64,000 bases of DNA, from contig NZ_AP021972.1 in the NCBI RefSeq assembly GCF_014168815.1, positions 4,756,375-4,820,374 on the forward strand, given 5' to 3'. Each line of letters starts with the position of its first letter. Position 1 is the first letter of the stretch. The stretch is from Klebsiella sp. WP3-W18-ESBL-02 (GTDB lineage Bacteria; Pseudomonadota; Gammaproteobacteria; Enterobacterales; Enterobacteriaceae). This document shows positions 3,343 through 63,058 of this stretch, one piece after another. The position numbers were made by a program, and so were the translations under genes. The notes under the pieces were generated by a model that saw only the letters and a list, made by a program, of their open reading frames with translations, had not been told where the DNA came from and searched no databases.

Positions 3343-4590
3343 TCAGAACATGACGCTAAGCTGCATCCCCGCCCCCCAGGTTTGCTCTTCGCCGTACAGT
3401 CCCATCAGATCGACGTGCACCCGATTAAAGGGCGCAAAGCCGACGCCGCCAGTAAAGACGTTGCTGTCGTTATTTTTTACATCAGCGCGATAACCCGCGC
3501 GCACCGCCAGCCAGTCCAGCGGGCGCACTTCTGCGCCAACGCCTACGTACTGCGACGCCTCTTCACTTTTAAAGCCCTTGGTTTGCGTCAAATCACCATC
3601 GACGCTTAAGGTCACGAGATCGGTGTGCCAGGCCCCCCCAGCGGTCACCAGTGGACGTATCTGGTAGGTATCGCGCACGCCGGCCACTTCTTTGGTATCA
3701 ATATCGCGCGAGAACAGGTTTTGCCCGCTGAGCCCCACCGTCCAGCTCTCGCCAAAATCGGCAGTCATCCCGGCATCGACGTTAAAGCCCGTATCATCAT
3801 TGCGATAGCGGCTGCTGTTGATGTCGTCGCTGCTGAAGTTGTAGATAGAGACGGTGTAGTTATAGAGCCAGGTTTGCTGGAGCTTCGGCGTAACGCCCAG
3901 TGAAATCGGTACGCCGCCAGGATTAAACTGACGGGCCATCGCCACGCCGTAGTCAGAGACGATCGCTGCGCGGCCAAATCCCTGTGATTTCAGATTGTTG
4001 GGATCGACCGCCAGCACGCTGGCCGGCACCGCCTGCACGCGGCGCAGCGTGTCGATGTCACCCTGGTCGATATACGAGCTGAGGCGCGCGCGCGCGTTGG
4101 CCTTTGCCACAAACGCCACCGCCAGTACATCGTTCGGCACTGCCACCACCATCCCTGCCCCCGCTTTCGCGCTGGCAGTTTTGCCCTTCAGGGATGATAG
4201 CCGATCCGCCAGATCCCCCGCCGCACCGGACACCTGACGATAACCCGGGCTGCCGGGGACAAACAGCTGCACCGGATTCACACCGTTGAGCGCTTTACGG
4301 TAGCCATTCACATCGTCGCTGATATCGTCGATTTCGCTGCGCAGATCGTCCTTATCGGATATCTGCGCGCCGATCGTCGGAAAAACCAGCGTCACCGCGT
4401 CGTCAGGCTGCGACCTGGCCAGCAGCGCGGGGTTAATCAGCGCCCCGCTGGCGTACGGCGCCGAAGCCACCCCCGTGCCACCCATCGCATCGCTTCGGGC
4501 CTCAACCCAGCCGTTTGCCGCCTCTGCCGGCCCTGCCATAATGAAAGAGACAGCGATCCCCATCAGCGAAAATTTGTCGTTTTTTTTCAC
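3343..4590 (-). CDS. Secreted outer-membrane beta-barrel protein, TraF-like/FadL-like family; not present at this position in E. coli K-12
   Basis: The ORF 3343-4641 has a probable GTG start at 4590, giving a signal peptide MKKNDKFSLMGIAVSFIMAGPAEA-ANG. The C-terminal residue is F, typical of OM barrels. The family assignment is from memory only. Confidence 0.55.
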   Translation of the reverse strand: MKKNDKFSLMGIAVSFIMAGPAEAANGWVEARSDAMGGTGVASAPYASGALINPALLARSQPDDAVTLVFPTIGAQISDKDDLRSEIDDISDDVNGYRKALNGVNPVQLFVPGSPGYRQVSGAAGDLADRLSSLKGKTASAKAGAGMVVAVPNDVLAVAFVAKANARARLSSYIDQGDIDTLRRVQAVPASVLAVDPNNLKSQGFGRAAIVSDYGVAMARQFNPGGVPISLGVTPKLQQTWLYNYTVSIYNFSSDDINSSRYRNDDTGFNVDAGMTADFGESWTVGLSGQNLFSRDIDTKEVAGVRDTYQIRPLVTAGGAWHTDLVTLSVDGDLTQTKGFKSEEASQYVGVGAEVRPLDWLAVRAGYRADVKNNDSNVFTGGVGFAPFNRVHVDLMGLYGEEQTWGAGMQLSVMF

Positions 4591-4762
4591 AGTTTGCTCG
4601 TCTTGTTGTCTGTTATGAAACAATCCCCCCTTCGTTATCACCTGAACGGGGGCGAACTATTGCTGTGAATAACGGGACAAAAAGCGTTCTGTTCCCTTAA
4701 CTGAAATTTTCTACAAGCTGGTTATTATTAATAAGCACCCTAATCTTTTATAGAAGATAAGA

Positions 4763-5254
4763 TTACTTTCGCCCAGGTTTTCCGTCGTGCGGGCCAAAAA
4801 ATTGCGGTGGGTGATCCACCCAGCGGTCTTCGCGCGTGACGGCATAAGCAGCGTTCAACGGGTAGTAAATACGGTTATGCTTTTTGTTGGCTTCACCCAC
4901 CACCAGCAGCCGTACCTCTTCGCTGGTGTTGTTGATGAAGGTATGGCATACGCCGGTTCCGGCCGGAAAACCAACGCTGTCACCCGGTTCAAGTTTCCAC
5001 AAATAGCCGTTAATCCACGCCTGTGGATAGCCTTCCAGCACATAGATAAACTCTTCCTCGTCGCTTTCGGCGTGCGGATACGAGGTGCGGCGGCCGGGCG
5101 GTAATCGTTCGTGGTGAATGCCGATATGCCTGAGCCCCAGCGCACGGGCCAGCGGCGCACCGATGGCAAAACGCTCGTCGCTGTCGGGATAAGTGGAGTC
5201 GTCGGGTCCTTCAACATCGCGCCAATGGCGAATACAGTCGGGTCTTTTCATCAT
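4763..5254 (-). CDS. Cupin-domain protein (cupin_2 fold)
   Basis: The 163-aa product has a cupin motif region ...EFIYVLEGYPQAWINGYLWKLEPGDSVGFPAGTGVCHTF.... An AGGATGA RBS lies upstream of the ATG. Confidence 0.65.
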   Translation of the reverse strand: MMKRPDCIRHWRDVEGPDDSTYPDSDERFAIGAPLARALGLRHIGIHHERLPPGRRTSYPHAESDEEEFIYVLEGYPQAWINGYLWKLEPGDSVGFPAGTGVCHTFINNTSEEVRLLVVGEANKKHNRIYYPLNAAYAVTREDRWVDHPPQFFGPHDGKPGRK

Positions 5255-5377
5255 TTTTCATCCTGAGTGTGAAGTTCACCTGCTATAACACACCTATAGC
5301 ACACCTGTGGAAACTCGGTGTTTCCGGCATAACATGGTAAAGTAGGGGTTTATTTCACCCGTAACTCGAGGACGCCA

Positions 5378-5893
5378 ATGGATAAGACCACCACGCAAGA
5401 ACTGTTAGCGCAGGCTGAGAAGCTGTGCGCGCAACGCGGCGTGCGCCTGACTCCGCAACGTCTGGAAGTGTTGCGCCTGATGAGCCTGCAGGAAGGGGCG
5501 ATTAGCGCCTATGACCTGCTGGACCTGCTGCGCGAGAAAGAACCCCAGGCCAAACCGCCAACCGTCTATCGCGCGCTGGAGTTTCTGCTTGAGCAAGGCT
5601 TCGTACACAAGGTGGAATCCGCCAACAGCTACGTGCTCTGTCATCTGTTCGATCAGCCGACGCATACCTCCGCGATGTTTATCTGCGATCGCTGCGGCGT
5701 GGTGAAAGAAGAGTGTGCAGAAGGGGTGGAAGATATCATGCATACGCTGGCGGCGAAAATGGGCTTTGCCCTACGCCACAACGTCATTGAGGCCCATGGC
5801 CTATGCTCTGCCTGCGTCGAGGTTGAAGCCTGCCGCGCGCATGAGCACTGTCATCACGACCATACCATTCAGTTGAAGAAAAAGGCCCGCTAA
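5378..5893 (+). CDS. zur: Zinc uptake regulator Zur (Fur family)
   Basis: MDKTTTQELLAQAEKLCAQRGVRLTPQRLEVLRLMS... is nearly identical to E. coli Zur (171 aa). Confidence 0.94.
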   Translation: MDKTTTQELLAQAEKLCAQRGVRLTPQRLEVLRLMSLQEGAISAYDLLDLLREKEPQAKPPTVYRALEFLLEQGFVHKVESANSYVLCHLFDQPTHTSAMFICDRCGVVKEECAEGVEDIMHTLAAKMGFALRHNVIEAHGLCSACVEVEACRAHEHCHHDHTIQLKKKAR

Positions 5894-26778: not shown

Positions 26779-27023
26779 CGTCATCGAGTATACACAACCA
26801 AATGAATGGAATTCGGTGATGGGAAATAGGGGAAGGTTTTTTCGGAAAATATGAAAATGAAAGATAAGAAAATAAAATATCAATAAATAACAGCGTGTTA
26901 TCTATTAACTTAAGAATGGCAATATACGGTTAATCCGAAACATACATCTGGGATAGGTGATATTTAGGATTATGCTCAATATCAATATAATTCAGAAAAT
27001 TAAGATATACGGAATTATCTGAC

Positions 27024-27050
27024 AAAAAAATGCCGGCATGATGCCGGCAT
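27024..27050 (-). terminator. Rho-independent terminator of pgi
   Basis: On the minus strand the hairpin ATGCCGGCAT-C-ATGCCGGCAT is followed by TTTTTTTG. Confidence 0.8.
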
Positions 27051-27065
27051 TGAGAATATATAACC

Positions 27066-28959: not shown

Positions 28960-29160
28960 CAGGCCAGAAGAGGCGCGTTGCCCAGGTATACGGTGTTGGA
29001 GGAACCCATCCTGTGAAAACACCTGAAGGGGAGCAACGCCGAGATGGCTGAACAACAGGTTACGTTCAACATCGGCTACAGGGGCTGAATCCCCTGGGTT
29101 GTCACCAGAAGCGTTCGCAGTCGGGCGTTTCGCAAGTGGTGGAGCACTTCTGGGTGAAAT
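28960..29160 (+). ncRNA. Lysine riboswitch (L-box) in the lysC leader
   Basis: The leader ...CCAGAAGAGGCGCGTTGCCCAGGTATACGGTGTTGGAGGA...GGCTACAGGGGCTGAATCCCCTGGGTTGTCACCAGAAGCGTTCGCAGTCGGGCGTTTCGCAAGTGGTGGAGCACTTCTGGGTG is nearly identical to the E. coli lysC leader. Confidence 0.85.
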
Positions 29161-29250: not shown

Positions 29251-30603
29251 ATGACAGCAGCAGTAGTCGTCGCCAAGTTTGGCGGTACCAGCGTAGCCGA
29301 TTTTGACGCTATGAATCGCAGCGCCGATGTGGTGCTTTCCGACGCCAACGTGCGTCTCGTCGTGCTGTCTGCCTCCGCAGGCGTCACCAACCTGCTGGTT
29401 GCGCTGGCCGAAGGGCTGGAGCCAGCCGAACGCGTGGCTAAGCTGGACGCCATTCGCGCCATTCAGTACGCCGTGCTGGAACGGCTGGCAAACCCTGCCG
29501 TCATTCGCGATGAAATTGAACGCCTGCTGGAAAATCTCGCGACGCTGGCGGAAGCCGCCTGCGCAGAAACGTCTACCGCGCTGACCGACGAACTGGTGAG
29601 CCACGGCGAGCTGATGTCGACCTTATTATTCGTTGAAATTCTGCGTGAACGTCAGGTTCAGGCGCAGTGGTTCGACGTGCGTAAAGTCATGCGCACCAGC
29701 GACCGCTTTGGCCGCGCCGAGCCGGACGTGGCCGCGCTGGCCGAACTGGCCGCACAGCAGTTAGCACCACGTCTTGAAGAAGGCCTGGTGATCACTCAGG
29801 GCTTTATCGGCAGCGAAAGCAAGGGTCGTACCACCACGCTGGGCCGCGGCGGCAGCGATTACACCGCCGCCCTGCTTGGCGAAGCGCTGCACGCCACCCG
29901 CGTCGATATCTGGACCGATGTTCCCGGTATCTACACCACCGATCCGCGCGTGGTGCCTGCGGCGAAACGTATTGATGAAATTGCCTTTGAAGAGGCCGCC
30001 GAGCTGGCGACCTTCGGCGCGAAGGTTCTGCATCCGGCCACGTTGCTGCCAGCCGTACGCAGCGACATTCCTGTGTTTGTCGGCTCCAGTAAAGATCCCA
30101 AAGCGGGCGGCACGCTGGTGTGCAACGAAACCGCCAATCCGCCGCTGTTCCGCGCGCTGGCGCTGCGCCGTAAGCAAACGCTGCTGACGCTGCACAGCCT
30201 CAACATGCTGCACTCACGCGGCTTCCTCGCGGAGGTATTCGGCATCCTCGCACGCCATAATATTTCGGTGGATCTGATCACTACCTCAGAGGTCAGCGTC
30301 GCGCTGACGCTCGACACGACCGGCTCAACGTCAACCGGCGACACCCTGCTGACGCAGTCGCTGCTGATGGAACTGTCGGCGCTGTGCCGTGTGGAAGTCG
30401 AAGAAGGCCTGGCGCTGGTGGCGTTGATTGGCAACGACCTGTCCAAAGCCTGCGGCGTGGGTAAAGAGGTGTTCGGCGTACTGGAGCCGTTCAACATTCG
30501 AATGATTTGCTACGGCGCGTCCAGCCATAACCTGTGCTTCCTGGTGCCGGGTGCGGAAGCCGAGCAGGTGGTACAGAAGCTGCACCATAATTTGTTTGAG
30601 TGA
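29251..30603 (+). CDS. lysC: Lysine-sensitive aspartokinase III
   Basis: MTAAVVVAKFGGTSVADFDAMNRSADVVLSDANVRLVVLSASAGVTNLLVALAEG... (450 aa) matches LysC, including the C-terminal ACT domains. Confidence 0.97.
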   Translation: MTAAVVVAKFGGTSVADFDAMNRSADVVLSDANVRLVVLSASAGVTNLLVALAEGLEPAERVAKLDAIRAIQYAVLERLANPAVIRDEIERLLENLATLAEAACAETSTALTDELVSHGELMSTLLFVEILRERQVQAQWFDVRKVMRTSDRFGRAEPDVAALAELAAQQLAPRLEEGLVITQGFIGSESKGRTTTLGRGGSDYTAALLGEALHATRVDIWTDVPGIYTTDPRVVPAAKRIDEIAFEEAAELATFGAKVLHPATLLPAVRSDIPVFVGSSKDPKAGGTLVCNETANPPLFRALALRRKQTLLTLHSLNMLHSRGFLAEVFGILARHNISVDLITTSEVSVALTLDTTGSTSTGDTLLTQSLLMELSALCRVEVEEGLALVALIGNDLSKACGVGKEVFGVLEPFNIRMICYGASSHNLCFLVPGAEAEQVVQKLHHNLFE

Positions 30604-30645
30604 GTAGACGTCAACGCCCGATGGTTCTTAGGCCATCGGGCATTT

Positions 30646-31431
30646 TCAGCGCATCACCGTATCATATAACAGTCTGTCCAGCGCCCGGACATCCCCTTCC
30701 CGGCTGTCTGGTAAGGTCGGTGGGATTTCTCCTCTCTCCAGTTCGCCGCGGATAAACGCATGTAACAATGGACGACGCGGACCATACTCAGCCTCACCTG
30801 ACCGCTGTTTGCGCGCCAGCAATTCGTCGATTTCCTGACGCAATGGCGCATCCAGTTCACTTCCCGCCAGCAGCTCGGCAAAACGCATTGGCGGCACGCC
30901 CTTGCCCGCTTCCACCCAACGCACCGCCAACAGGGGTCGCAGAACGTAGAAGTACTTCTTCAATCGCACGTCGTCACCCTGCAAATAACCACGGAAGTTT
31001 TTCCGCGCCATCGAGTAGTAGTGCCAGCGGGCACGTAGCGGAGAAAACCATTTGGGCACCAACGCTTTCAGCACCGACACGGTCGCGTCATCCTGCTGAT
31101 AGACCACCGGCGAATCCAGCCACTCGATAAGCGTCGGGTTTGCGCCTTTGAGTAACCCCAGCGCCTTGCGCCATTCCCAGCCGCACACGTCCAGCTCATC
31201 ATCTATCGGCAGCTCAATAACATCGCGTGGCGCTTCGATCCGCAGATACCATTCAGGGGGATGAACATAGAGAAATCGCACGTCGTAATCGCTGTCCGGC
31301 GAAGCAAATCCCCAGCCACGGCTGCCGGACTCACAGGCATACAGCACCCTGACGCCATAGCGCTGCTCAACCTCTTTTAGCTGGCGCAATACCCGTTCGC
31401 GCATTGCGCCGTCCACTGTGTTGTCGCTCAT
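30646..31431 (-). CDS. Pol-beta-superfamily nucleotidyltransferase, distal gene of the sigma54-driven operon
   Basis: The 261-aa product has the active-site motif ...YACESGSRGWGFASPDSDYDVRFLY... (GS-x9-D-x-D). Its start lies 5 nt after the SPFH gene stop. There is no HEPN partner and no E. coli K-12 counterpart. Confidence 0.6.
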   Translation of the reverse strand: MSDNTVDGAMRERVLRQLKEVEQRYGVRVLYACESGSRGWGFASPDSDYDVRFLYVHPPEWYLRIEAPRDVIELPIDDELDVCGWEWRKALGLLKGANPTLIEWLDSPVVYQQDDATVSVLKALVPKWFSPLRARWHYYSMARKNFRGYLQGDDVRLKKYFYVLRPLLAVRWVEAGKGVPPMRFAELLAGSELDAPLRQEIDELLARKQRSGEAEYGPRRPLLHAFIRGELERGEIPPTLPDSREGDVRALDRLLYDTVMR

Positions 31432-31436
31432 TATTC

Positions 31437-32564
31437 TTATCCTTTTATGTTCACAAGACCGTGCAGCACCTGATCCAGGCCCCCGAACACCGAGATTTTA
31501 TCGATGCGCTCAGCAACTCTTTCGAGGGTTTCCAGTTCTTTTAAGCGCAGCGCTACCGGGTTGTTTTCCATCACTTTTGCCGTATTTAACAGCGATCGCG
31601 TGGCGGCAGTCTCTTCACGACGTCGGATCACGTTGGCCTGGGCGGATTTTTCCGCTTCAACCAGTTGCGATAAAATAGCCTTCATATCGCCGGGCAGGAC
31701 AATATCCTTCACCCCCAGTGAAGCCACCTCAATACCAAACGGCGTCATACGGGCTTTCACCTGCGCGCTCACCACTTCATCGATCACCTGCTTATCTTCC
31801 AGCAATTCGTCCAGCGTGCGCGTTCCCACCGCTTCACGCAGCGCAAACTGCAATTCACGGTAAAGGTGATCCAGCGGTTTAGTCAGTTGACCAAATGCCA
31901 GCAACACATCGCGATAATGCCAGTTCGCCGCCAGGTTTAAACGCAGGTTGACCTTATCTTTGGTCAGTATCTCCTGGCCGCCAACCTCCAGCACCTGCAA
32001 GCGGGTATCCACTACTTCCGCTTCAATCAGATGGTTTACCTTCCAGTATGCCGTCAGACCTGGCGACAGTAATGCCTGTGTCTCACCGTCAATTTTCAGC
32101 ACACCGACGTGCCACGCCGGGACCTGCACCGTTAAGATAGCTTCGCGACCTTTCACCGCACCGCTGCGACGTGGCTGTAATACTGCGTTCATCACGTCAA
32201 CAGGAACCAAAACCTGACGTGTATCCATCCGTACCAGCTTCAGCGCTTCATCGGCCTGCCAGTACAGACGGCGCGTTGCCGGTGGCAAAATTTCCTGCAA
32301 GACGCCGTTGACATACAGCGCCGCGGCTTCGGTATCCGTTGTATCCGCGACCAGGCAGTAACGCTCCACCCAATAAGGCTGAAAGCGGCGTAAATACTCC
32401 GCTAATGCCTGCGGTACTTCGCCGCCATCCCTATTGACGATCAGCACTTCCGGGGTGCTAAACCACGGTAAACGATGCTGACCCGCTTCCAACACCTGAT
32501 AGTAATCACCCTCGCGGGATAAAAGACCTAACTGCGCTTTTTGGATAGTGATTTTCTTAGCCAT
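31437..32564 (-). CDS. SPFH/band-7 (stomatin/flotillin-like) domain protein, proximal gene of the sigma54-driven operon
   Basis: The ATG at 32564 follows an AAGGA RBS, giving MAKKITIQKAQLGLL... (375 aa). The C-terminal half has the SPFH signature ...ILTKDKVNLRLNLAANWHYRDV...GIEVASLGVKDIVLPGDMKAILSQLVEAEKSAQANVIRRREET.... No transmembrane segment is evident. The ORF track started at 32639. Confidence 0.6.
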   Translation of the reverse strand: MAKKITIQKAQLGLLSREGDYYQVLEAGQHRLPWFSTPEVLIVNRDGGEVPQALAEYLRRFQPYWVERYCLVADTTDTEAAALYVNGVLQEILPPATRRLYWQADEALKLVRMDTRQVLVPVDVMNAVLQPRRSGAVKGREAILTVQVPAWHVGVLKIDGETQALLSPGLTAYWKVNHLIEAEVVDTRLQVLEVGGQEILTKDKVNLRLNLAANWHYRDVLLAFGQLTKPLDHLYRELQFALREAVGTRTLDELLEDKQVIDEVVSAQVKARMTPFGIEVASLGVKDIVLPGDMKAILSQLVEAEKSAQANVIRRREETAATRSLLNTAKVMENNPVALRLKELETLERVAERIDKISVFGGLDQVLHGLVNIKG

Positions 32565-32728
32565 TTTATATTCCTTAATATCGTTCAGGCGCGGGTGCAG
32601 GGGCGAAGCGGCAGGGGAATTCCCTTTTGCCTGCCGCACGGCATCTTTACCGGCAGCCTGTTCTGGAGCGTGCTAACTGCACATCACTCCGCTTTATTTC
32701 TATGATTAACAACCCGTTTTCATTCGGG

Positions 32729-32763
32729 GATGAAATTGGGAATCGAACCCACTGTGTGTCATC
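32729..32763 (-). other. tRNA-like T-arm/acceptor minihelix motif in the operon leader (candidate structured RNA element)
   Basis: The minus-strand RNA is 5'-GAUGACACACAG-UGGG-UUCGAUU-CCCA-AUUUCAUC-3'. It has a canonical T-loop (UUCGAUU) on a 4-bp GGG/CCC stem, enclosed by a 5-bp GAUGA/UCAUC helix. There are no D or anticodon arms, so it is not a tRNA gene. Confidence 0.3.
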
Positions 32764-32860
32764 GGCTGACGGAACACTCCCGGAAAACAGCCTGTGCCGT
32801 TCCTGACGTGCCGGCGGGGTTTAACCCCCTGCGTTTTCAGCGTGATTGACGCAAGTGTTA

Positions 32861-32877
32861 TTGCCAGAAGCGTGCCA
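32861..32877 (-). promoter_or_regulatory. sigma54 (-24/-12) promoter driving the SPFH + nucleotidyltransferase operon
   Basis: The minus strand reads CTGGCAC-GCTTC-TGGCAA, i.e. TGGCAC-N5-TGGC with the GG and GC dinucleotides correctly spaced. It is divergent from the RtcR-like bEBP gene, and the leader to the SPFH ATG is about 285 nt. Confidence 0.55.
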
Positions 32878-33012
32878 GGAATTAAAAAAGGCATATTTAA
32901 TTTTTAATTAATTGATTTTTATAATTTTAATTATTGATGCCAATAATGACGGTTGTCTCGACGGGTTAATTTTTTTATCTTTTATTCTCTTATTTATCTT
33001 TTTGGATAAACC

Positions 33013-34593
33013 ATGAAAAAACGGCGGGTAGTGATTGGCGTACTGGGAACGGTGCTCGATAAGCGCGGCAAGCGGGCCAATCGGTTTAAGAAGTGGCGAC
33101 CCACGGTTGGGCTATGCCAACAACCCGATTTCCCTGTCGACAGGCTGGAACTCCTCCACCAGCCACGCGATGAGAGCATGGCGCAACGGTTGATTGAAGA
33201 CGTCGCGCTGCTTTCGCCGTACACCCAGGTTCGCCCGCATGCCGTCACCATTAACGATCCGTGGGACTTTGAAGAGGTCTACGCCGCGTTTCTCGACTTT
33301 GCCACGCATTATGAATTTGATACGGAAAACGAAGAGTATCTGGTGCACATCACCACCGGGACTCACGTGGCACAAATCTGCTGGTTTTTGCTGACGGAAG
33401 CCCGCTACCTGCCCGCCAGCCTGCTGCAAACCGGCCCGGCGCCACGCGGTTCATCAGATGAGGCCGTCGCCGCTGGCGTCTGCTCGGTTATCGATCTCGA
33501 TTTAAGCCGCTACGCCACGCTCACCAGTCGTTTTCAGCGCGAACAGCAGCGGTCGGTCTCTTTTCTGAAAGCCGGGATTGATACGCGCAACGCCACCTTC
33601 AATAAACTGATCGATCGCATTGAGCGGGTAGCTCTGCGTTCGACCGACCCGATCCTGCTCACCGGCCCTACCGGCGCGGGCAAATCCTTCCTCGCGAAAC
33701 GTATTTTTCAGCTACGCCAGTCGCGGCATCTGGTGGCGGGAAAACTGGTGGCGGTTAACTGCGCAACCCTGCGCGGCGACAATGCGATGTCCACGCTGTT
33801 TGGTCACGTGAAGGGAGCCTTTACCGGCGCACTCACGGCGCGCAGCGGGTTGCTGCGAGAAGCGGATGGCGGCGTGCTGTTTCTCGATGAGATAGCCGAA
33901 TTGGGGCTGGACGAGCAGGCCATGCTACTCAAAGCAATTGAAGAAAAAACCTTTTTCCCGTTTGGGTCAGACAAAGAAGTACGCAGCGATTTTCAGCTGA
34001 TTGCTGGCACCCATCGCGACATGCGGCAATGGGTATCTGAAGGCCGTTTTCGCGAGGATCTCTACGCGCGTATCAATATGTGGAGCTTCGCCCTGCCCGG
34101 TCTGGCGCAGCGGCGGGAAGATATCGCGCCGAACGTCGAGTATGAGCTGCAACGTTTCTCCAGCAGCAAACAGACGCAAATCCGTTTCGATAAAGAAGCC
34201 CGCGCTTACTATCTGGCATTTGCCTGTTCCTCACAGGCACAGTGGCGTGGCAATTTTCGCGAGCTAAGTTCATCCATCGCGCGTATGGCGACGCTTGCCG
34301 AACAAGGTCGCATCACCTTATCCCTTGTCGAAGAAGAGATTGCGCTGCTAAAGGAGAGTTGGCAGATAGCCACTCCGCAGCCTGAACTGAATATGGACAT
34401 TGACCTGTTCGATCGCCGCCAGTTAGAAACGGTACTGGAAGTGTGCCGCCGCTGCGCGTCGCTGTCGGAAGCCGGACGCGAACTGTTTGCCGTCTCGCGG
34501 CAGAAAAAAGCCAATCCCAACGATGCAGACCGCCTGCGCAAATATCTCGCTCGTTTCGGGCTAAGCTGGGAAAACCTCCGCAGCGCAACATGA
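33013..34593 (+). CDS. RtcR-like sigma54-dependent transcriptional activator with an N-terminal CARF domain and AAA+ sigma54-activation domain
   Basis: The 526-aa product is colinear with E. coli RtcR, by memory roughly 50% identity. It carries the CARF-like N-terminus ...HITTGTHVAQICWFLL..., Walker A GPTGAGKS, the sigma54-contact GAFTGA motif (GHVKGAFTGA), and a C-terminal HTH ...DADRLRKYLARFGL.... Confidence 0.8.
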   Translation: MKKRRVVIGVLGTVLDKRGKRANRFKKWRPTVGLCQQPDFPVDRLELLHQPRDESMAQRLIEDVALLSPYTQVRPHAVTINDPWDFEEVYAAFLDFATHYEFDTENEEYLVHITTGTHVAQICWFLLTEARYLPASLLQTGPAPRGSSDEAVAAGVCSVIDLDLSRYATLTSRFQREQQRSVSFLKAGIDTRNATFNKLIDRIERVALRSTDPILLTGPTGAGKSFLAKRIFQLRQSRHLVAGKLVAVNCATLRGDNAMSTLFGHVKGAFTGALTARSGLLREADGGVLFLDEIAELGLDEQAMLLKAIEEKTFFPFGSDKEVRSDFQLIAGTHRDMRQWVSEGRFREDLYARINMWSFALPGLAQRREDIAPNVEYELQRFSSSKQTQIRFDKEARAYYLAFACSSQAQWRGNFRELSSSIARMATLAEQGRITLSLVEEEIALLKESWQIATPQPELNMDIDLFDRRQLETVLEVCRRCASLSEAGRELFAVSRQKKANPNDADRLRKYLARFGLSWENLRSAT

Positions 34594-35631: not shown

Positions 35632-35644
35632 CGCTCAAGAGTCG

Positions 35645-35720
35645 GCCCGATAAGCGGAGCGCCATCGGGCTAAATAACGCACCTTGCCGGATGGCGGCGT
35701 CAACGCCTTATCCGGCCTAC
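35645..35720. repeat. REP/BIME element
   Basis: GCCCGATAAGCGGAGCGCCATCGGGC is followed by GCCGGATGGCGGCGTCAACGCCTTATCCGGCCTAC. Confidence 0.8.
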
Positions 35721-53177: not shown

Positions 53178-53297
53178 ATGCCTGGCAGTTCCCTACTCTC
53201 GCATGGGGAGACCCCACACTACCATCGGCGCTACGGCGTTTCACTTCTGAGTTCGGCATGGGGTCAGGTGGGACCACCGCGCTACGGCCGCCAGGCA
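53178..53297 (-). rRNA. rrfB: 5S ribosomal RNA
   Basis: The 120-nt minus-strand sequence TGCCTGGCGGCCGTAGCGCGGTGGTCCCACCTGACCCCATGCCGAACTCAGAAGTGAAACGCCGTAGCGCCGATGGTAGTGTGGGGTCTCCCCATGCGAGAGTAGGGAACTGCCAGGCAT matches enterobacterial 5S rRNA. Confidence 0.95.
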
Positions 53298-53389
53298 AAT
53301 TCTGTATTAACCCGCTTTTCGCCGGTCAATGTAATCTGTAATCAATGCTGAAAATCGTCTCAATTTCGCCAAAACATCTTCGGCGTTGT

Positions 53390-56296
<2,907 letters not shown>

Positions 56297-56515
56297 TCAC
56301 AACCCGAAGATGTTTCGTAAAACACCATCGTGTTGCGAAAATTTGAGAGACTCGAACACACCGCTTATCTGTTCTTATTACGGAGAACAGACACAGTGTG
56401 TCGTTTCAATTTTCAGCTTGATCCAGATTTTTAAAGAGCAAATATCTCAAACAAGACTCGGAAGTCTGTTTTGAGATACTAAGGTCGGCGACTTTCACTC
56501 ACACTAACCAGCAAG

Positions 56516-56591
56516 TGGCGTCCCCTAGGGGATTCGAACCCCTGTTACCGCCGTGAAAGGGCGGTGTCCTGGGCCTCTAGACGAAGGGGAC
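56516..56591 (-). tRNA. gltT: tRNA-Glu (UUC) in the 16S-23S spacer
   Basis: The minus-strand sequence GTCCCCTTCGTCTAGAGGCCCAGGACACCGCCCTTTCACGGCGGTAACAGGGGTTCGAATCCCCTAGGGGACGCCA is identical to E. coli tRNA-Glu and includes the encoded CCA. Confidence 0.95.
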
Positions 56592-56676
56592 ACTGAAGTC
56601 TCAATCGCAAGACGCCTTGCTATTTACTTTTCATCAGACAATCTGTGTGAGCACTTCAAAGAACGCTTCTTTAAGG

Positions 56677-58216
<1,540 letters not shown>

Positions 58217-60443: not shown

Positions 60444-61733
60444 ATGAAAGTATTAGTGATTGGCAACGGCGGGCGCGAGCACGCCCTGGCGTGGAAAGCG
60501 GCGCAGTCGCCAAAAGTCAAAACGGTATTTGTCGCCCCGGGCAATGCGGGCACCGCGCTGGAACCCACGCTGCAAAACGTGGCCATCGGAGTAACCGATA
60601 TCCCGGCGCTGCTGGACTTTGCCCAGAACGAGAAGATCGATCTGACCATCGTTGGCCCGGAAGCGCCGCTGGTGATTGGCGTGGTTGATGCCTTCCGCGC
60701 CGCCGGTCTGAAAATCTTCGGCCCAACCGAAGGTGCCGCGCAGCTGGAAGGCTCCAAAGCCTTCACCAAAGATTTCCTCGCGCGCCACCAGATCCCAACG
60801 GCGGAGTACCAGAACTTCACCGAAATCGAACCTGCGCTGGCTTACCTGCGCGAGAAAGGCGCGCCGATCGTTATCAAAGCCGATGGTCTGGCTGCCGGGA
60901 AAGGCGTTATCGTGGCGATGACGCTGGAGGAAGCCGAAGCCGCGGTTCATGACATGCTGGCCGGCAACGCGTTTGGCGACGCGGGCCACCGCATCGTGAT
61001 TGAAGAGTTCCTCGACGGTGAAGAAGCGAGCTTTATTGTCATGGTCGACGGTGAGCACGTGCTGCCGATGGCCACCAGCCAGGACCACAAGCGCGTGGGC
61101 AATGGCGATACCGGCCCGAACACCGGTGGGATGGGTGCCTACTCCCCTGCTCCGGTAGTGACTGACGAAGTCCACCAGCGCACCATGGAACGCATCATCT
61201 GGCCAACGGTGAAAGGCATGGCGGCGGAAGGTAACACCTATACCGGTTTCCTGTACGCGGGCCTGATGATCGACAATCAGGGCAACCCGAAGGTTATCGA
61301 GTTTAACTGCCGCTTCGGCGATCCGGAAACCCAGCCGATCATGCTGCGCATGAAGTCCGATCTGGTGGAGCTGTGCCTCGCCGCCTGTGACGGCAAGCTG
61401 GATGAGAAAACCTCCGAGTGGGACGAACGCGCCTCGCTGGGCGTGGTCATTGCCGCCGGAGGTTATCCGGGTAATTACAATACCGGCGATGAGATCCACG
61501 GTCTGCCGCTGGAAGACGTCGCTGACGGTAAAGTGTTCCACGCGGGTACCAAACTGTCTGCTGACGATCGCGTGCTGACCAACGGCGGTCGCGTGCTGTG
61601 CGCCACCGCGCTGGGCAACACCGTGGCGGAAGCGCAGAAACGCGCCTACGCCCTGATGACCGACATCCGCTGGGACGGCAGCTTCAGCCGTAACGACATC
61701 GGCTGGCGCGCCATCGAACGTGAGCAAAACTAA
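60444..61733 (+). CDS. purD: Phosphoribosylamine-glycine ligase
   Basis: MKVLVIGNGGREHALAWKAAQSPKVKTVFVAPGNAGTALEP... (429 aa) matches PurD. Confidence 0.98.
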   Translation: MKVLVIGNGGREHALAWKAAQSPKVKTVFVAPGNAGTALEPTLQNVAIGVTDIPALLDFAQNEKIDLTIVGPEAPLVIGVVDAFRAAGLKIFGPTEGAAQLEGSKAFTKDFLARHQIPTAEYQNFTEIEPALAYLREKGAPIVIKADGLAAGKGVIVAMTLEEAEAAVHDMLAGNAFGDAGHRIVIEEFLDGEEASFIVMVDGEHVLPMATSQDHKRVGNGDTGPNTGGMGAYSPAPVVTDEVHQRTMERIIWPTVKGMAAEGNTYTGFLYAGLMIDNQGNPKVIEFNCRFGDPETQPIMLRMKSDLVELCLAACDGKLDEKTSEWDERASLGVVIAAGGYPGNYNTGDEIHGLPLEDVADGKVFHAGTKLSADDRVLTNGGRVLCATALGNTVAEAQKRAYALMTDIRWDGSFSRNDIGWRAIEREQN

Positions 61734-63058
61734 CGGCTGAGCTTAGCCAGCAGCGTTTTGCGCGTAATACCTAACTGACGGGCGGCTTCGGTTTTATTGC
61801 CGCCCGTTTTTTCCAGCGCCGCCAGAATCACCTCTTTTTCAACTTCCACCAGCGGCTGAATGACGTCATCAGCCGATGAGCATGCCGGAACCGGCGTCCC
61901 GACAATCGCCAGCGGCAGCTCGCGCTCAGAAATATACTCTCCCGTCAGCAGCACAACCGCCCGCTCCACCGCGTTTTCCAGCTCGCGGATATTTCCCGGC
62001 CAGTCATAGTGAATCAACAAATCCATCGCCTGCGGGGTAAAGCCCTGTACCGACTTACGGTTTCGTTCGCCGTAGCGCCGCAGAAAATGATGTGCCAGCT
62101 GAGGAATATCCTCACGGCGCTGGCGCAGCGGCGGCATCTCGATGGCGACCACGTTCAGGCGGTAGTAGAGATCTTGGCGAAAGCGCCCGGCATTCACCTC
62201 TTCAGCCAGGTCTCGATGGGTAGCGGCAATCAGCCGTACATCGACGGAAAGGGTCTGATTGCTGCCAACGCGCTGCACCTCACGCTCCTGGATAACCCGC
62301 AGCAGGCGCACCTGCATCAGCGGCGAAATATCGCCAATCTCATCAAGAAACAGCGTGCCACCGTCGGCTTCGACAAAACGCCCTTCCCGGCGTTTATCAG
62401 CGCCGGTAAATGCGCCCTTCTCGTGGCCAAACAGTTCCGATTCCAGCAGCGACTCATTGAGCGCCGCGCAGTTCAGCGTCACCAGCGGCTTATCGCCGCG
62501 CAGGCTGAGGGCATGCAGCGCGCGCGCCACCAGCTCTTTACCGGTGCCCGATTCGCCGTGAATGAGCACCGTCGCATCCGACGGCGCCACCAGCGCAATA
62601 TTGTGTAACAGCGCCCGCATGGCCGGGCTATCGCCCACCATGCCAGACTGCGGCGCAGATTCCACCGCCGCGCTTTCCGGCTGGCGTGTGTGTGCTAAAG
62701 CCGCTACCAGCGTCTGCTGCAGGCTATCGAAATCGAGCGGTTTCACCAGGTAATCCAGCGCACCGGACTTGAGCGCCTCAACCGCTGTCCCCACGCTAGA
62801 GTAGGCGGTCATGATCAGCACCGGAATCGACGGGTTGTAGGCTTTAATCTCTTTCAGCGTTTCAATGCCGTCCATTTCCGCCATGCGGATGTCGCAGAGC
62901 ACCAGATCGAACACCCGCTCGCGTACCTGTTCCAACGCCTGTCGCCCGTTATGGGCCAGCGACACTTCACATCCCCAGCCCCGCAGCAGCGCCTGTAAGA
63001 TTGTGCAGTGACTGGTGTCGTCATCGACCACCAGAATCGTCACATTCTCTGCCGTCAT
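61730..63058 (-). CDS. zraR: sigma54-dependent response regulator ZraR (HydG)
   Basis: The 442-aa product has a receiver domain, AAA+ region (GESGTGKE, GAFTGA) and C-terminal HTH, near-identical to E. coli ZraR. Its 3' end overlaps purD by 4 nt. Confidence 0.93.
   Translation of the reverse strand: MTAENVTILVVDDDTSHCTILQALLRGWGCEVSLAHNGRQALEQVRERVFDLVLCDIRMAEMDGIETLKEIKAYNPSIPVLIMTAYSSVGTAVEALKSGALDYLVKPLDFDSLQQTLVAALAHTRQPESAAVESAPQSGMVGDSPAMRALLHNIALVAPSDATVLIHGESGTGKELVARALHALSLRGDKPLVTLNCAALNESLLESELFGHEKGAFTGADKRREGRFVEADGGTLFLDEIGDISPLMQVRLLRVIQEREVQRVGSNQTLSVDVRLIAATHRDLAEEVNAGRFRQDLYYRLNVVAIEMPPLRQRREDIPQLAHHFLRRYGERNRKSVQGFTPQAMDLLIHYDWPGNIRELENAVERAVVLLTGEYISERELPLAIVGTPVPACSSADDVIQPLVEVEKEVILAALEKTGGNKTEAARQLGITRKTLLAKLSR

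What the first reader, a model, noticed from the sequence alone, without database searches (positions are those of the whole stretch)
32851..32879. Strong sigma54 promoter facing the SPFH/NTase operon, about 285 nt upstream of the first start codon
The minus strand reads CTGGCAC-GCTTC-TGGCAA, with a perfect -24 TGGCAC, 5-nt spacer, and -12 TGGC carrying the GC at the right position. It points toward the SPFH gene and away from the RtcR-like gene, the same geometry as rtcR/rtcBA. The long leader suggests post-initiation control or an embedded RNA element.
Basis: seen in the sequence. Interest (0 to 1): 0.55.

Follow-up and report, generated by a model that had tools for sequence, protein, structure and literature searches.

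The report
RtcR-type sigma-54 promoter, structured leader RNA
The motif is very probably a real sigma-54 promoter, the counterpart of the E. coli rtcBA RNA-repair promoter, and the 287-base "leader" behind it is a conserved folded RNA with a tRNA-like hairpin, not in Rfam, co-transcribed with a slipin gene and an RNA-tailing enzyme gene.

Summary
The minus strand reads CTGGCACGCTTCTGGCAATA at 32878-32859 (GG at -24/-25, GC at -12/-13), and the predicted start at 32850-32851 lies 287 nt upstream of the slipin ATG (32564).

One window cannot establish it (2 matches against 0.38 expected). Comparison does: all 80 related loci, from Citrobacter to Burkholderia and Pseudomonas, carry exactly one such motif at the same place. 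79 have a divergent rtcR. Upstream lie a conserved TTATC-N6-GATAA repeat at about -158 and an IHF-like site at about -66. The core matches the E. coli rtcBA promoter.

The leader is a conserved structured RNA:
- a 5' three-way junction that starts at the predicted +1 (95.7% of cells paired, 20 of 25 pairs with compensatory changes on an unfitted alignment);
- an invariant T-arm hairpin, GGGUUCGAUUCCC;
- three further hairpins.

In relatives the T-arm belongs to a tRNA-like minihelix, or to full tRNA-like genes (Pseudomonas PA4581.1; the predicted "b7a-tRNA"). Rfam 15 has no match.

The usual operon is RNA-slipin-rtcB-rlaP. This lineage has lost rtcB.

The promoter itself is ordinary. The RNA is the interesting part. 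Sigma-54/RtcR dependence and processing of the RNA are inferred, not shown.

The parts
33013..34593 (+). rtcR: sigma-54 activator with CARF, AAA+ and C-terminal DNA-binding regions, divergent from the operon
   Evidence: Pfam RtcR (residues 3-188) plus Sigma54_activat (192-357). NCBIfam equivalog NF038308 scores 820.7 bits against a cut-off of 650. GAFTGA at residue 268 and Walker A GPTGAGKS at residue 218. 62% identical to E. coli RtcR.
32972..33010 (.). Putative RtcR upstream activating sequence: inverted repeat TTATCCAAAAAGATAA (33009-32994, about -158 to -143), followed by a second GATA-containing block (about 32990-32974)
   Evidence: A strict TTATC-N6-GATAA match occurs in 54 of 82 promoter regions, clustered at -157 to -160 or -172 to -174, including Pseudomonas and Burkholderia. 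In E. coli the equivalent place holds CGATA-N6-TATCG. Binding by RtcR is inferred.
32905..32917 (-). IHF-like site AATCAATTAATTA (matches WATCAANNNNTTR) at -66 to -54
   Evidence: A strict match occurs in 37 of 82 loci, 28 of them at exactly -66. The E. coli rtcBA promoter is described as having a UAS, an IHF site and a -24/-12 element (PMC9650030). Binding is inferred.
32862..32878 (-). Sigma-54 -24/-12 promoter CTGGCACGCTTCTGGCA
   Evidence: Exactly one TGGCA[CT]-N5-T[TCG]GC within 800 nt upstream of slipin in 81 of 81 loci. Aligns with E. coli rtcBA CTGGCACGACGGTTGCA.
32850..32851 (-). Predicted transcription start
   Evidence: Lies 12-13 nt downstream of the GC dinucleotide. Sequence conservation and the terminal helix of the RNA begin at +1/+2, while -8 to -1 are not conserved.
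32758..32851 (-). 5' domain of the leader RNA, a three-way junction. Terminal helix: GUCA 32850-32847 with UGAC 32761-32758. H1: 32841-32837 with 32769-32765. P2 hairpin: 32832-32826 with 32819-32814. Long P4 hairpin: 32813-32798 with 32789-32770.
   Evidence: RNAalifold on an unfitted MAFFT alignment of 23 diverse sequences. Pair count: 95.7% of cells paired, 20 of 25 pairs changed on both sides, 0 of 500 shuffles reach this, slid controls at most 51%. The window's own MFE fold gives the same structure. Model R2 finds it in Providencia, Proteus and Pseudomonas.
32737..32751 (-). tRNA T-arm mimic: UGGG-UUCGAUU-CCCA. The 13-mer GGGTTCGATTCCC (32750-32738) is invariant in the 24 closest lineages.
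   Evidence: Matches the T-arm of a tmRNA model. In relatives it is the T-arm of an acceptor/D-loop/T-arm minihelix or of a full tRNA-like gene.
32718..32735 (-). Hairpin after the T-arm (UUUCAU-CCCCGA-AUGAAA)
   Evidence: Compensatory variants: UUCACU/AGUGAA in L008 and UCACC/GGUGA in L033-L037 (alignments). 73% of cells paired over all 63 sequences. Absent in L017.
32665..32690 (-). Hairpin H5 (GGAGUG ... CGCUCC) with a conserved loop GCAGUYAGC
   Evidence: Forms in all 24 close relatives with different stem sequences, for example GCUGCC/GGCAGC and GCCAUCG/CGAUGGC.
32586..32660 (-). Long imperfect hairpin H6, ending 10 nt before the Shine-Dalgarno sequence
   Evidence: RNAalifold gives 21 pairs, 11 with compensatory changes.
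31437..32576 (-). Shine-Dalgarno AAGGA (32576-32572) and the slipin/SPFH (Band 7) gene, ATG at 32564
   Evidence: Pfam Band_7 over residues 147-318, E = 1e-24. Sources name it 'slipin family protein', Citrobacter, 97% identity.
30646..31431 (-). rlaP: Pol-beta-family nucleotidyltransferase of RNA repair operons
   Evidence: Pfam PF10127 RlaP, E = 5.6e-96. The family adds 1-2 NMP to RNA 3'-OH ends in vitro (bioRxiv 10.64898/2025.12.29.696909).
30615..30640 (.). Stem-loop between the convergent rlaP and lysC genes, a possible shared terminator
   Evidence: Read directly (CCCGATGG-CCTAAGAA-CCATCGGG). Not called by the simple terminator scan.

Best explanation
The motif at 32878-32862 (-) is the RtcR-dependent sigma-54 promoter of a reduced RNA-repair operon. 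RtcR is encoded divergently. It would bind the TTATC-N6-GATAA repeats about 150 bp upstream, IHF would bend the AT-rich DNA in between, and the activated AAA+ ring would open the sigma-54 closed complex at -24/-12. By analogy with Salmonella, the activating signal is tRNA fragments that end in a 2',3'-cyclic phosphate and bind the CARF domain. Transcription starts at 32850-32851. The first 266 nt of the 287-nt leader fold as a non-coding RNA; the last 21 nt carry the ribosome-binding site. The RNA consists of a three-way-junction domain closed by the very 5' end of the transcript, a tRNA T-arm mimic, and three hairpins. Transcription then continues without a recognisable terminator into slipin and rlaP. 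The RNA is the enterobacterial, reduced relative of the tRNA-like gene found between rtcR and the Band-7 gene in other proteobacteria ('b7a-tRNA'; PA4581.1 in P. aeruginosa). It most likely acts, after processing, as a cofactor or substrate mimic for the operon's proteins, much as Y RNAs do in Salmonella rsr-yrlBA-rtcBA. Shown here: the motif, its conservation, homology to the E. coli rtcBA promoter, the identity of RtcR, the RNA structure and its 5' boundary, and the loss of rtcB. Inferred: sigma-54 and RtcR dependence, UAS and IHF binding, the inducing signal, processing of the RNA, and its function.
For: Promoter. The sequence is as described. Exactly one -24/-12 motif is present in each of 81 loci, 96-160 nt upstream of the T-loop motif. 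The core and its flanks match E. coli rtcBA: ttttCTGGCACGacggTTGCAATtatca against attcCTGGCACGcttcTGGCAATaaca. A conserved UAS-like inverted repeat lies at about -158 and an IHF-like site at -66, the architecture reported for E. coli rtcBA (PMC9650030). 79 of 80 relatives have a divergent rtcR. RtcR passes the NCBIfam equivalog cut-off and has GAFTGA. No sigma-70-like site was found on the coding strand between the motif and the ATG.

RNA. The whole leader is conserved. For the 5' junction, 95.7% of cells pair and 20 of 25 pairs are compensated, against at most 51% for slid controls. On the model-fitted alignment of 63 sequences, 89% of cells pair and 26 of 29 pairs are compensated. H6 has 11 of 21 pairs compensated, and H5 forms in 24 of 24 sequences with different stems. 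The terminal helix uses nt +2 to +5, with compensatory changes in L008, L012, L017, L019 and Providencia, while -8 to -1 are unconserved. The T-arm continues into tRNA-like minihelices in relatives and into tRNA-model hits in Pseudomonas (52 bits). PA4581.1 lies between rtcR and PA4582-85, lacks CCA and is detected by qRT-PCR (PMC13637947). The 'b7a-tRNA' prediction is cited in bioRxiv 10.1101/312249.
Against: There are no expression data of any kind for this locus. The -12 element deviates at -14 (G; C in Burkholderia, Pseudomonas and some others; never T), and the E. coli homologue is very weak in vitro. Motif frequency within the window alone is not significant. The window's element is not recognised as a tRNA by ARAGORN or by the Rfam tRNA model, so 'tRNA-like' here rests on the T-arm and on homology by position. 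The leader's MFE z-score is only -1.8, and -0.95 for the 5' domain. Whether the RNA is released from the mRNA is unknown. In P. aeruginosa the level of the tRNA-like gene did not rise when the Rtc proteins were induced, which fits poorly with simple co-transcription there.
Confidence: 0.8

Rival explanations
1. The leader is a purely cis-acting 5' UTR, such as a riboswitch or another sensor that controls slipin translation or transcript stability, and not a separately functioning RNA.
For: The RNA is contiguous with the mRNA and no terminator separates them. H6 ends 10 nt before the Shine-Dalgarno sequence. A three-way junction with highly conserved junction nucleotides resembles an aptamer. 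The RNA is always found in front of slipin.
Against: In relatives the same position holds complete tRNA-like genes or minihelices, which are not expression platforms. The Pseudomonas one is annotated as a tRNA and detected as an RNA. H6 does not sequester the Shine-Dalgarno sequence in the consensus fold. The nearest characterised parallel, Salmonella rsr-yrlBA-rtcBA, releases trans-acting Y RNAs.
Confidence: 0.15
2. The sigma-54 promoter drives mainly the non-coding RNA, and slipin-rlaP are expressed from a separate internal promoter.
For: In P. aeruginosa the tRNA-like gene and the Rtc proteins were not co-regulated in one mutant background. An E. coli-type rtcBA promoter is weak.
Against: No sigma-70-like site lies on the minus strand between 32851 and 32565, and no terminator. 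Nearly all of the leader (nt 1-266 of 287) is taken up by conserved RNA helices.
Confidence: 0.08
3. The match is a chance occurrence, and the operon uses an unrecognised sigma-70 promoter.
For: The pattern is short. A second copy exists inside an ORF at 4466-4480, and 6 of 100 shuffles give 2 or more copies per window. Sigma-70-like hexamers occur in the AT-rich spacer at 32959-32915.
Against: 81 of 81 loci across gamma- and beta-proteobacteria keep the motif, while the adjacent bases vary. It is homologous to the E. coli rtcBA promoter. The conserved RNA begins at the predicted +1.
Confidence: 0.02

Closest known systems
E. coli rtcR / rtcBA sigma-54 promoter (Genschik et al. 1998; Kotta-Loizou et al. 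2022, PMC9650030)
   Same: A divergent rtcR, a UAS, an IHF site and a -24/-12 element in the same order. The core is nearly identical (CTGGCACG-N4-TKGCAAT). RtcR is 62% identical.
   Different: E. coli has a leader of about 45 nt with no RNA element, and model R1 finds nothing in that locus. Its operon is rtcB-rtcA, with no slipin or rlaP. Its -14 base is the consensus T. The genomic site also differs: malT/glpR in E. coli, against lysC here.
Salmonella rsr-yrlB-yrlA-rtcB-rtcA operon (Chen et al. 2013/2014; Hughes et al. 2020, PMC7790460)
   Same: An RtcR/sigma-54-controlled RNA repair operon that co-transcribes non-coding RNAs, one of which (YrlA) has a tRNA-like domain built around a T-arm and D-loop elbow.
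   Different: There is no Rsr/Ro60 gene here. There is no match to Rfam YrlA (RF02553) in the window, and only E = 0.089 in Pseudomonas. The RNA comes first in the operon, before the protein genes. A slipin stands where Ro60 would be.
[quoted passage not shown]
   Same: An RNA with tRNA features encoded between rtcR and a Band-7/slipin gene of an RtcB/RlaP operon. It holds the same position relative to the sigma-54 promoter in all loci examined.
   Different: In the window only the T-arm survives. There is no acceptor stem, D-arm or anticodon arm, and tRNA finders do not call it. It is embedded in a larger RNA with a 5' three-way junction and 3' hairpins that I could not find described and that Rfam 15 lacks. 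rtcB is absent from this operon. I could not read the 2016 paper, so how much of the larger RNA it describes is unknown.

Membership tests
Sigma-54 (RpoN) dependent promoter | GG at -24/-25 and GC at -12/-13, ten bases apart, within a TGGCAC-N5-TTGCW context | tested here: met
   TGGCACGCTTCTGGCA has one mismatch, G at -14.
Sigma-54 (RpoN) dependent promoter | A cognate enhancer-binding protein with a GAFTGA loop, and upstream enhancer sites | tested here: met
   rtcR is adjacent, with GAFTGA at residue 268. Conserved inverted repeats lie at about -158 and an IHF-like site at -66. Binding itself was not tested.
Sigma-54 (RpoN) dependent promoter | Transcription that depends on rpoN and starts about 12 nt downstream of the GC | not testable with these tools
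   Indirect only: the conserved RNA structure begins at the predicted +1/+2.
RtcR regulon promoter (rtcBA type) | A divergent rtcR ortholog with CARF, AAA+ and HTH regions | tested here: met
   Pfam RtcR plus Sigma54_activat. NCBIfam equivalog NF038308 scores 820.7 against a cut-off of 650. PADLOC RtcR model, E = 4e-261.
RtcR regulon promoter (rtcBA type) | Controls the RNA ligase rtcB, with or without the cyclase rtcA | tested here: not met
   tblastn finds no rtcB or rtcA in the window. The slipin stop and the rlaP start are adjacent. 64 of 80 related loci do carry rtcB in the operon, so this is a derived loss.
b7a-tRNA / PA4581.1-type tRNA-like gene | Located between rtcR and a Band-7 gene, downstream of the sigma-54 promoter | tested here: met
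b7a-tRNA / PA4581.1-type tRNA-like gene | [quoted passage not shown] | tested here: not met
   ARAGORN and the Rfam tRNA model find nothing in the leader. Only the T-arm is present. The feature is met in Pseudomonas L065 (tRNA model, 52 bits), in part in Burkholderia, and as a minihelix in Kosakonia, Erwinia, Xenorhabdus and Proteus.
YrlA / bacterial Y RNA (Rfam RF02553) | A match to the covariance model, and an adjacent rsr (Ro60) gene | tested here: not met
   No YrlA hit in 481 nt up to E = 10. None of the 8 ORFs scanned against Pfam around the locus, which include every gene of the operon, is a Ro60/Rsr homologue.

The most novel reading that the evidence does not exclude
The leader is a multi-domain non-coding RNA of about 270 nt that has not been catalogued: a three-way junction, a tRNA-elbow or T-arm mimic, and two 3' hairpins. 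It is conserved from Enterobacterales to Pseudomonas, and probably to Burkholderia. The 'b7a-tRNA' is only its variable middle module. The RNA would be the functional core of a slipin-centred RNA-repair or RNA-surveillance particle that can work without the ligase RtcB, as in this Citrobacter lineage. For example, it could present a T-loop to RlaP or to the slipin assembly, or act as a decoy for tRNA-targeting nucleases.
Probability: 0.3. Interest if true: 0.65.

Novelty: new variant of a known kind. Interest (0 to 1): 0.45.

Why it matters
The promoter call extends the RtcR/sigma-54 RNA-damage regulon to an operon with no ligase and no cyclase. It also supplies a candidate RtcR operator, TTATC-N6-GATAA, that can be tested directly. 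Bacterial RNA-repair operons repeatedly carry tRNA-like RNAs whose role is unknown (YrlA, b7a-tRNA), and according to the 2018 preprint the b7a-tRNA had not been validated experimentally. This locus gives a well-supported structural model and a defined 5' end. It also offers a natural series of variants: full tRNA-like genes, then a minihelix, then a bare T-arm, each with or without rtcB. That series shows which parts are indispensable, namely the T-loop and the 5' junction, and it makes the RNA's function approachable in genetically tractable enterobacteria.

Tried and rejected
- Rfam 15 on the leader (E up to 10), on 6 kb around it, on the whole window and on seven related loci gave no family for the leader.
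- ARAGORN found no tRNA in the leader or in the enterobacterial relatives.
- Megablast of the leader against 5,426 E. coli genomes gave no match.
- RNAalifold on the full-leader alignment proposed long-range pairs: GCUGA with the H5 loop, and GCCGG with ACUGGU. I dropped both. The first has 5 C-A mismatches and its partner sits in a hairpin loop. The second is absent from the Kosakonia/Erwinia group. The wider alignment gives H1 with the internal UCAGC instead.
- An acceptor-like helix GAUGA/UCAUC flanking the window's T-arm was considered and rejected. Its 5' strand is used by the terminal helix with nt +2 to +5, and its 3' strand by the hairpin after the T-arm.
- A crude stem-covariation script was too noisy to use.
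- Model R1 did not reach Burkholderia or Pseudomonas. The shorter R2 reached Pseudomonas (E = 2.8e-4). In Burkholderia it gave only marginal hits at the syntenic position (E = 0.1-0.8).
- The Burroughs and Aravind 2016 paper (PMC5062991) is not held.
- PADLOC gave no defence-system assignment for slipin or RlaP.

Full report
**The observation.** The minus strand at 32880-32851 reads TCCTGGCACGCTTCTGGCAATAACACTTGC. TGGCAC lies at 32877-32872, a 5-nt spacer follows, and TGGC lies at 32866-32863. This puts GG and GC ten bases apart, as in the sigma-54 consensus TGGCAC-N5-TTGCW, with one mismatch: G for T at -14. With the C of GC as -12, +1 is 32851. The first ATG of the SPFH gene is 32564, so the leader is 287 nt.

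The motif faces a Band_7/SPFH gene (32564-31437) and a PF10127 RlaP nucleotidyltransferase gene (31431-30646). It points away from a gene with Pfam RtcR plus Sigma54_activat domains (33013-34593).

Motif frequency alone is not convincing. TGGCAC-N5-TKGC occurs twice in the window against 0.38 expected, and 6 of 100 shuffles reach two. The second copy, at 4466-4480, lies inside an ORF.

**Source organism and relatives.** The slipin protein is 97% identical to Citrobacter freundii-complex proteins. A scan of one genome per species with a slipin alignment returned 80 loci. They come from Citrobacter, Klebsiella, Enterobacter, Kosakonia, Erwinia, Providencia, Proteus, Morganella, Xenorhabdus, Burkholderia and Pseudomonas.

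Each of the 81 sequences has exactly one TGGCA[CT]-N5-T[TCG]GC within 800 nt upstream of slipin, always 96-160 nt upstream of a GGTTCGAWTCC motif. The 8 nt just upstream of the predicted start are not conserved.

79 of 80 relatives have a divergent rtcR. The window's RtcR passes the NCBIfam equivalog cut-off (820.7 bits against 650). It has GAFTGA at residue 268 and a Walker A motif at residue 218.

**Homology to the known promoter.** E. coli rtcR is 62% identical at the protein level. Its intergenic region reads ...aaaaaattaatctgcttatttaattttCTGGCACGacggTTGCAATtatca. The window reads ...aaaaattaaatatgccttttttaattcCTGGCACGcttcTGGCAATaacac.

Next to the rtcR start codon, all groups carry an inverted repeat TTATC-N6-GATAA. 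In the window it lies at 33009-32994, about -158. A strict match is present in 54 of 82 regions, including Pseudomonas and Burkholderia. A second GATA block follows it. E. coli has CGATA-N6-TATCG at the equivalent place.

A match to the IHF consensus, AATCAATTAATTA (32917-32905), lies at -66. It is at exactly that position in 28 loci. Kotta-Loizou et al. describe the E. coli rtcBA promoter as UAS plus IHF site plus -24/-12, and note that it is very weak in vitro (PMC9650030).

I conclude that the finding is the homologue of that promoter. RtcR and IHF binding, and sigma-54 dependence, remain inferred. The simple scan finds no sigma-70-like site and no terminator on the minus strand between 32851 and 32565.

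**The leader is an RNA gene.** The whole 287 nt is conserved in 24 close lineages.

*5' domain.* An unfitted MAFFT alignment of 23 diverse 5' parts, folded with RNAalifold, gives a three-way junction of H1, P2 and a long P4. Of its cells 95.7% form standard pairs, and 20 of 25 pairs show changes on both sides. None of 500 shuffles reaches this. Sliding the partners by 1-3 columns gives at most 51% paired and at most 8 such pairs. The window's own minimum-energy fold reproduces the junction. It adds a terminal helix between nt +2 to +5 (GUCA) and UGAC at 91-94. That helix is kept by compensatory changes: GCCA/UGGC in L008, GUUAU/AUAAC in L012, UGCGU/ACGCA in L019, UGUGU/GCACA in L017, and AUC/GAU in Providencia. 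The conserved RNA therefore starts at the predicted +1. This is independent support for the start site.

*Covariance models.* A model of the 5' 135 nt finds one hit per locus in all Enterobacteriaceae, Erwinia and Xenorhabdus (E from 1e-33 to 5e-6). It finds one in the window (32717-32851, -) and none in the E. coli rtc locus. On that fitted alignment of 63 sequences, 89% of cells pair and 26 of 29 pairs are compensated. A shorter model of the junction also finds Providencia, Morganella and Proteus (E from 1e-13 to 8e-4). It finds Pseudomonas at E = 2.8e-4, directly upstream of the tRNA-like genes there. In Burkholderia it gives only marginal hits at the syntenic place.

*3' elements.* Hairpin H5 (32690-32665) forms in 24 of 24 sequences with different stems. 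The long hairpin H6 (32660-32586) has 11 of 21 pairs compensated. It ends 10 nt before the Shine-Dalgarno sequence.

**The tRNA-like module.** GGGTTCGATTCCC (32750-32738) is invariant in the close relatives. It is a canonical T-stem-loop (G53, U54-U55-C56-R57-A58, C61).
- In Kosakonia, Erwinia, Xenorhabdus, Proteus and Morganella it is flanked by a 5-6 bp acceptor-like helix with compensatory changes: GCGAA/UUCGC, GCAAA/UUUGC, GCGAU/AUCGC, UCGGA/UCCGA, CAGUG/CACUG, GGUGAU/AUCACC. A single-stranded D-loop-like stretch with a conserved GG lies between them. This is a tRNA elbow mimic without an anticodon arm.
- In Burkholderia there are two such elements in tandem. The second is a cloverleaf whose anticodon arm ends in a GNRA-type tetraloop.
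- In Pseudomonas sp. L065 two tandem tRNA-Arg-like genes are called, and one scores 52 bits on the Rfam tRNA model.
- In P. aeruginosa the gene is annotated PA4581.1 'tRNA-arg4'. It lies between rtcR and PA4582-85, lacks CCA, and was detected by qRT-PCR (PMC13637947). PA4582's PA14 counterpart is the SPFH protein PaFlo8 (PMC13086221).
- Wang et al. cite Burroughs and Aravind 2016 for a predicted, unvalidated 'band 7-associated tRNA' next to RtcB (bioRxiv 10.1101/312249).

The window's version has lost the acceptor and D-loop parts. ARAGORN and Rfam do not see it. No Rfam family, YrlA included, matches the leader.

**The operon.** In 64 of 80 relatives the order is RNA-slipin-rtcB(-rlaP). Proteus lacks rlaP. 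One Pseudomonas has rtcB-rtcA. The window, like the C. freundii complex, the K. oxytoca group and a few others, has slipin directly followed by rlaP, and no rtcB or rtcA within 64 kb. The type of RNA (bare T-arm or minihelix) does not track the presence of rtcB. RlaP enzymes add one or two NMPs to RNA 3'-OH ends and help restore damaged tRNA in vitro (bioRxiv 10.64898/2025.12.29.696909).

**Mechanism proposed.** Damaged tRNA fragments with cyclic phosphate ends activate RtcR (Hughes et al. 2020, PMC7790460, for Salmonella; and the abstract). RtcR bound at the TTATC-N6-GATAA sites, helped by an IHF bend, opens the sigma-54 complex. The transcript starts at 32850-32851. It first yields the structured RNA and then the slipin and RlaP messages. 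By analogy with yrlA/yrlB, I expect the RNA to be cut out and to act with the operon's proteins. A purely cis role cannot be excluded.

**Verdict.** The promoter is real with high probability, but it is an ordinary member of the RtcR/sigma-54 class. The unusual content of the locus is the leader RNA and the ligase-less operon. Nothing here is experimentally verified.

Noticed in passing
window 31431-31437 (slipin stop / rlaP start): rtcB, which lies between slipin and rlaP in 64 of 80 related loci, is cleanly absent here. The window holds no rtcA or rtcB at all, so an RtcR-controlled 'RNA repair' operon is left without a ligase.
   Followed up: partly
L062-L080 (Burkholderia) about 3580-3745; L065 (Pseudomonas) 3564-3710: Two tandem tRNA-like genes lie in the leader. 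In Burkholderia the second has a GNRA-type tetraloop in place of the 7-nt anticodon loop, so it cannot decode. In Pseudomonas both look like tRNA-Arg (TCG and ACG anticodons) and lack CCA.
   Followed up: partly
L018, L021, L030, L041, L045, L046 and others, just 3' of the acceptor-like helix: The acceptor-like 3' strand is followed by ACC, CACC or AAACC rather than NCCA. This is curious next to a gene for an enzyme that adds 1-2 nucleotides to RNA 3' ends.
   Followed up: no
window 32918-32947 (+): A sigma-70-like site (TTTATA-18-AATAAT) points toward rtcR. If it is used, the TTATC-N6-GATAA repeat (32994-33009) would lie in the rtcR 5' UTR, which suggests autoregulation.
   Followed up: no
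L061, L063, L072, L078 (Xenorhabdus, Providencia) 4001-5550: The slipin gene is about 140 codons longer. tblastn shows a second, weaker match to the N-terminal part, which suggests a partial internal duplication.
   Followed up: no
L019 (Escherichia sp. MOD1-EC7003): This locus keeps the promoter (with a TCGC -12 element), the RNA, slipin and rlaP, but has no rtcR next to it.
   Followed up: no
window 28960-29157 (+): A lysine riboswitch (Rfam, 97.9 bits) lies upstream of the aspartokinase gene at 29251-30603, which converges on rlaP.
   Followed up: yes
window 61730-63058 (-): A second sigma-54 activator-like ORF (442 aa). Its AAA+ region is 38% identical to E. coli RtcR by tblastn. Its target promoter was not sought.
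   Followed up: no
window 4466-4480 (-): A second TGGCAC-N5-TGGC match lies inside a 432-codon ORF (3343-4641). It is probably a chance match.
   Followed up: partly
window 35644-35717: A palindromic REP-like element matches Rfam naRNA4 below the gathering score (45.5 bits against 59.5), on both strands.
   Followed up: no
window 26911-27061 (+); 53180-58216 (-): An STnc430 sRNA match (70.7 bits), and a complete rRNA operon (16S, tRNA-Glu, 23S, 5S) with a StyR-44 element.
   Followed up: no
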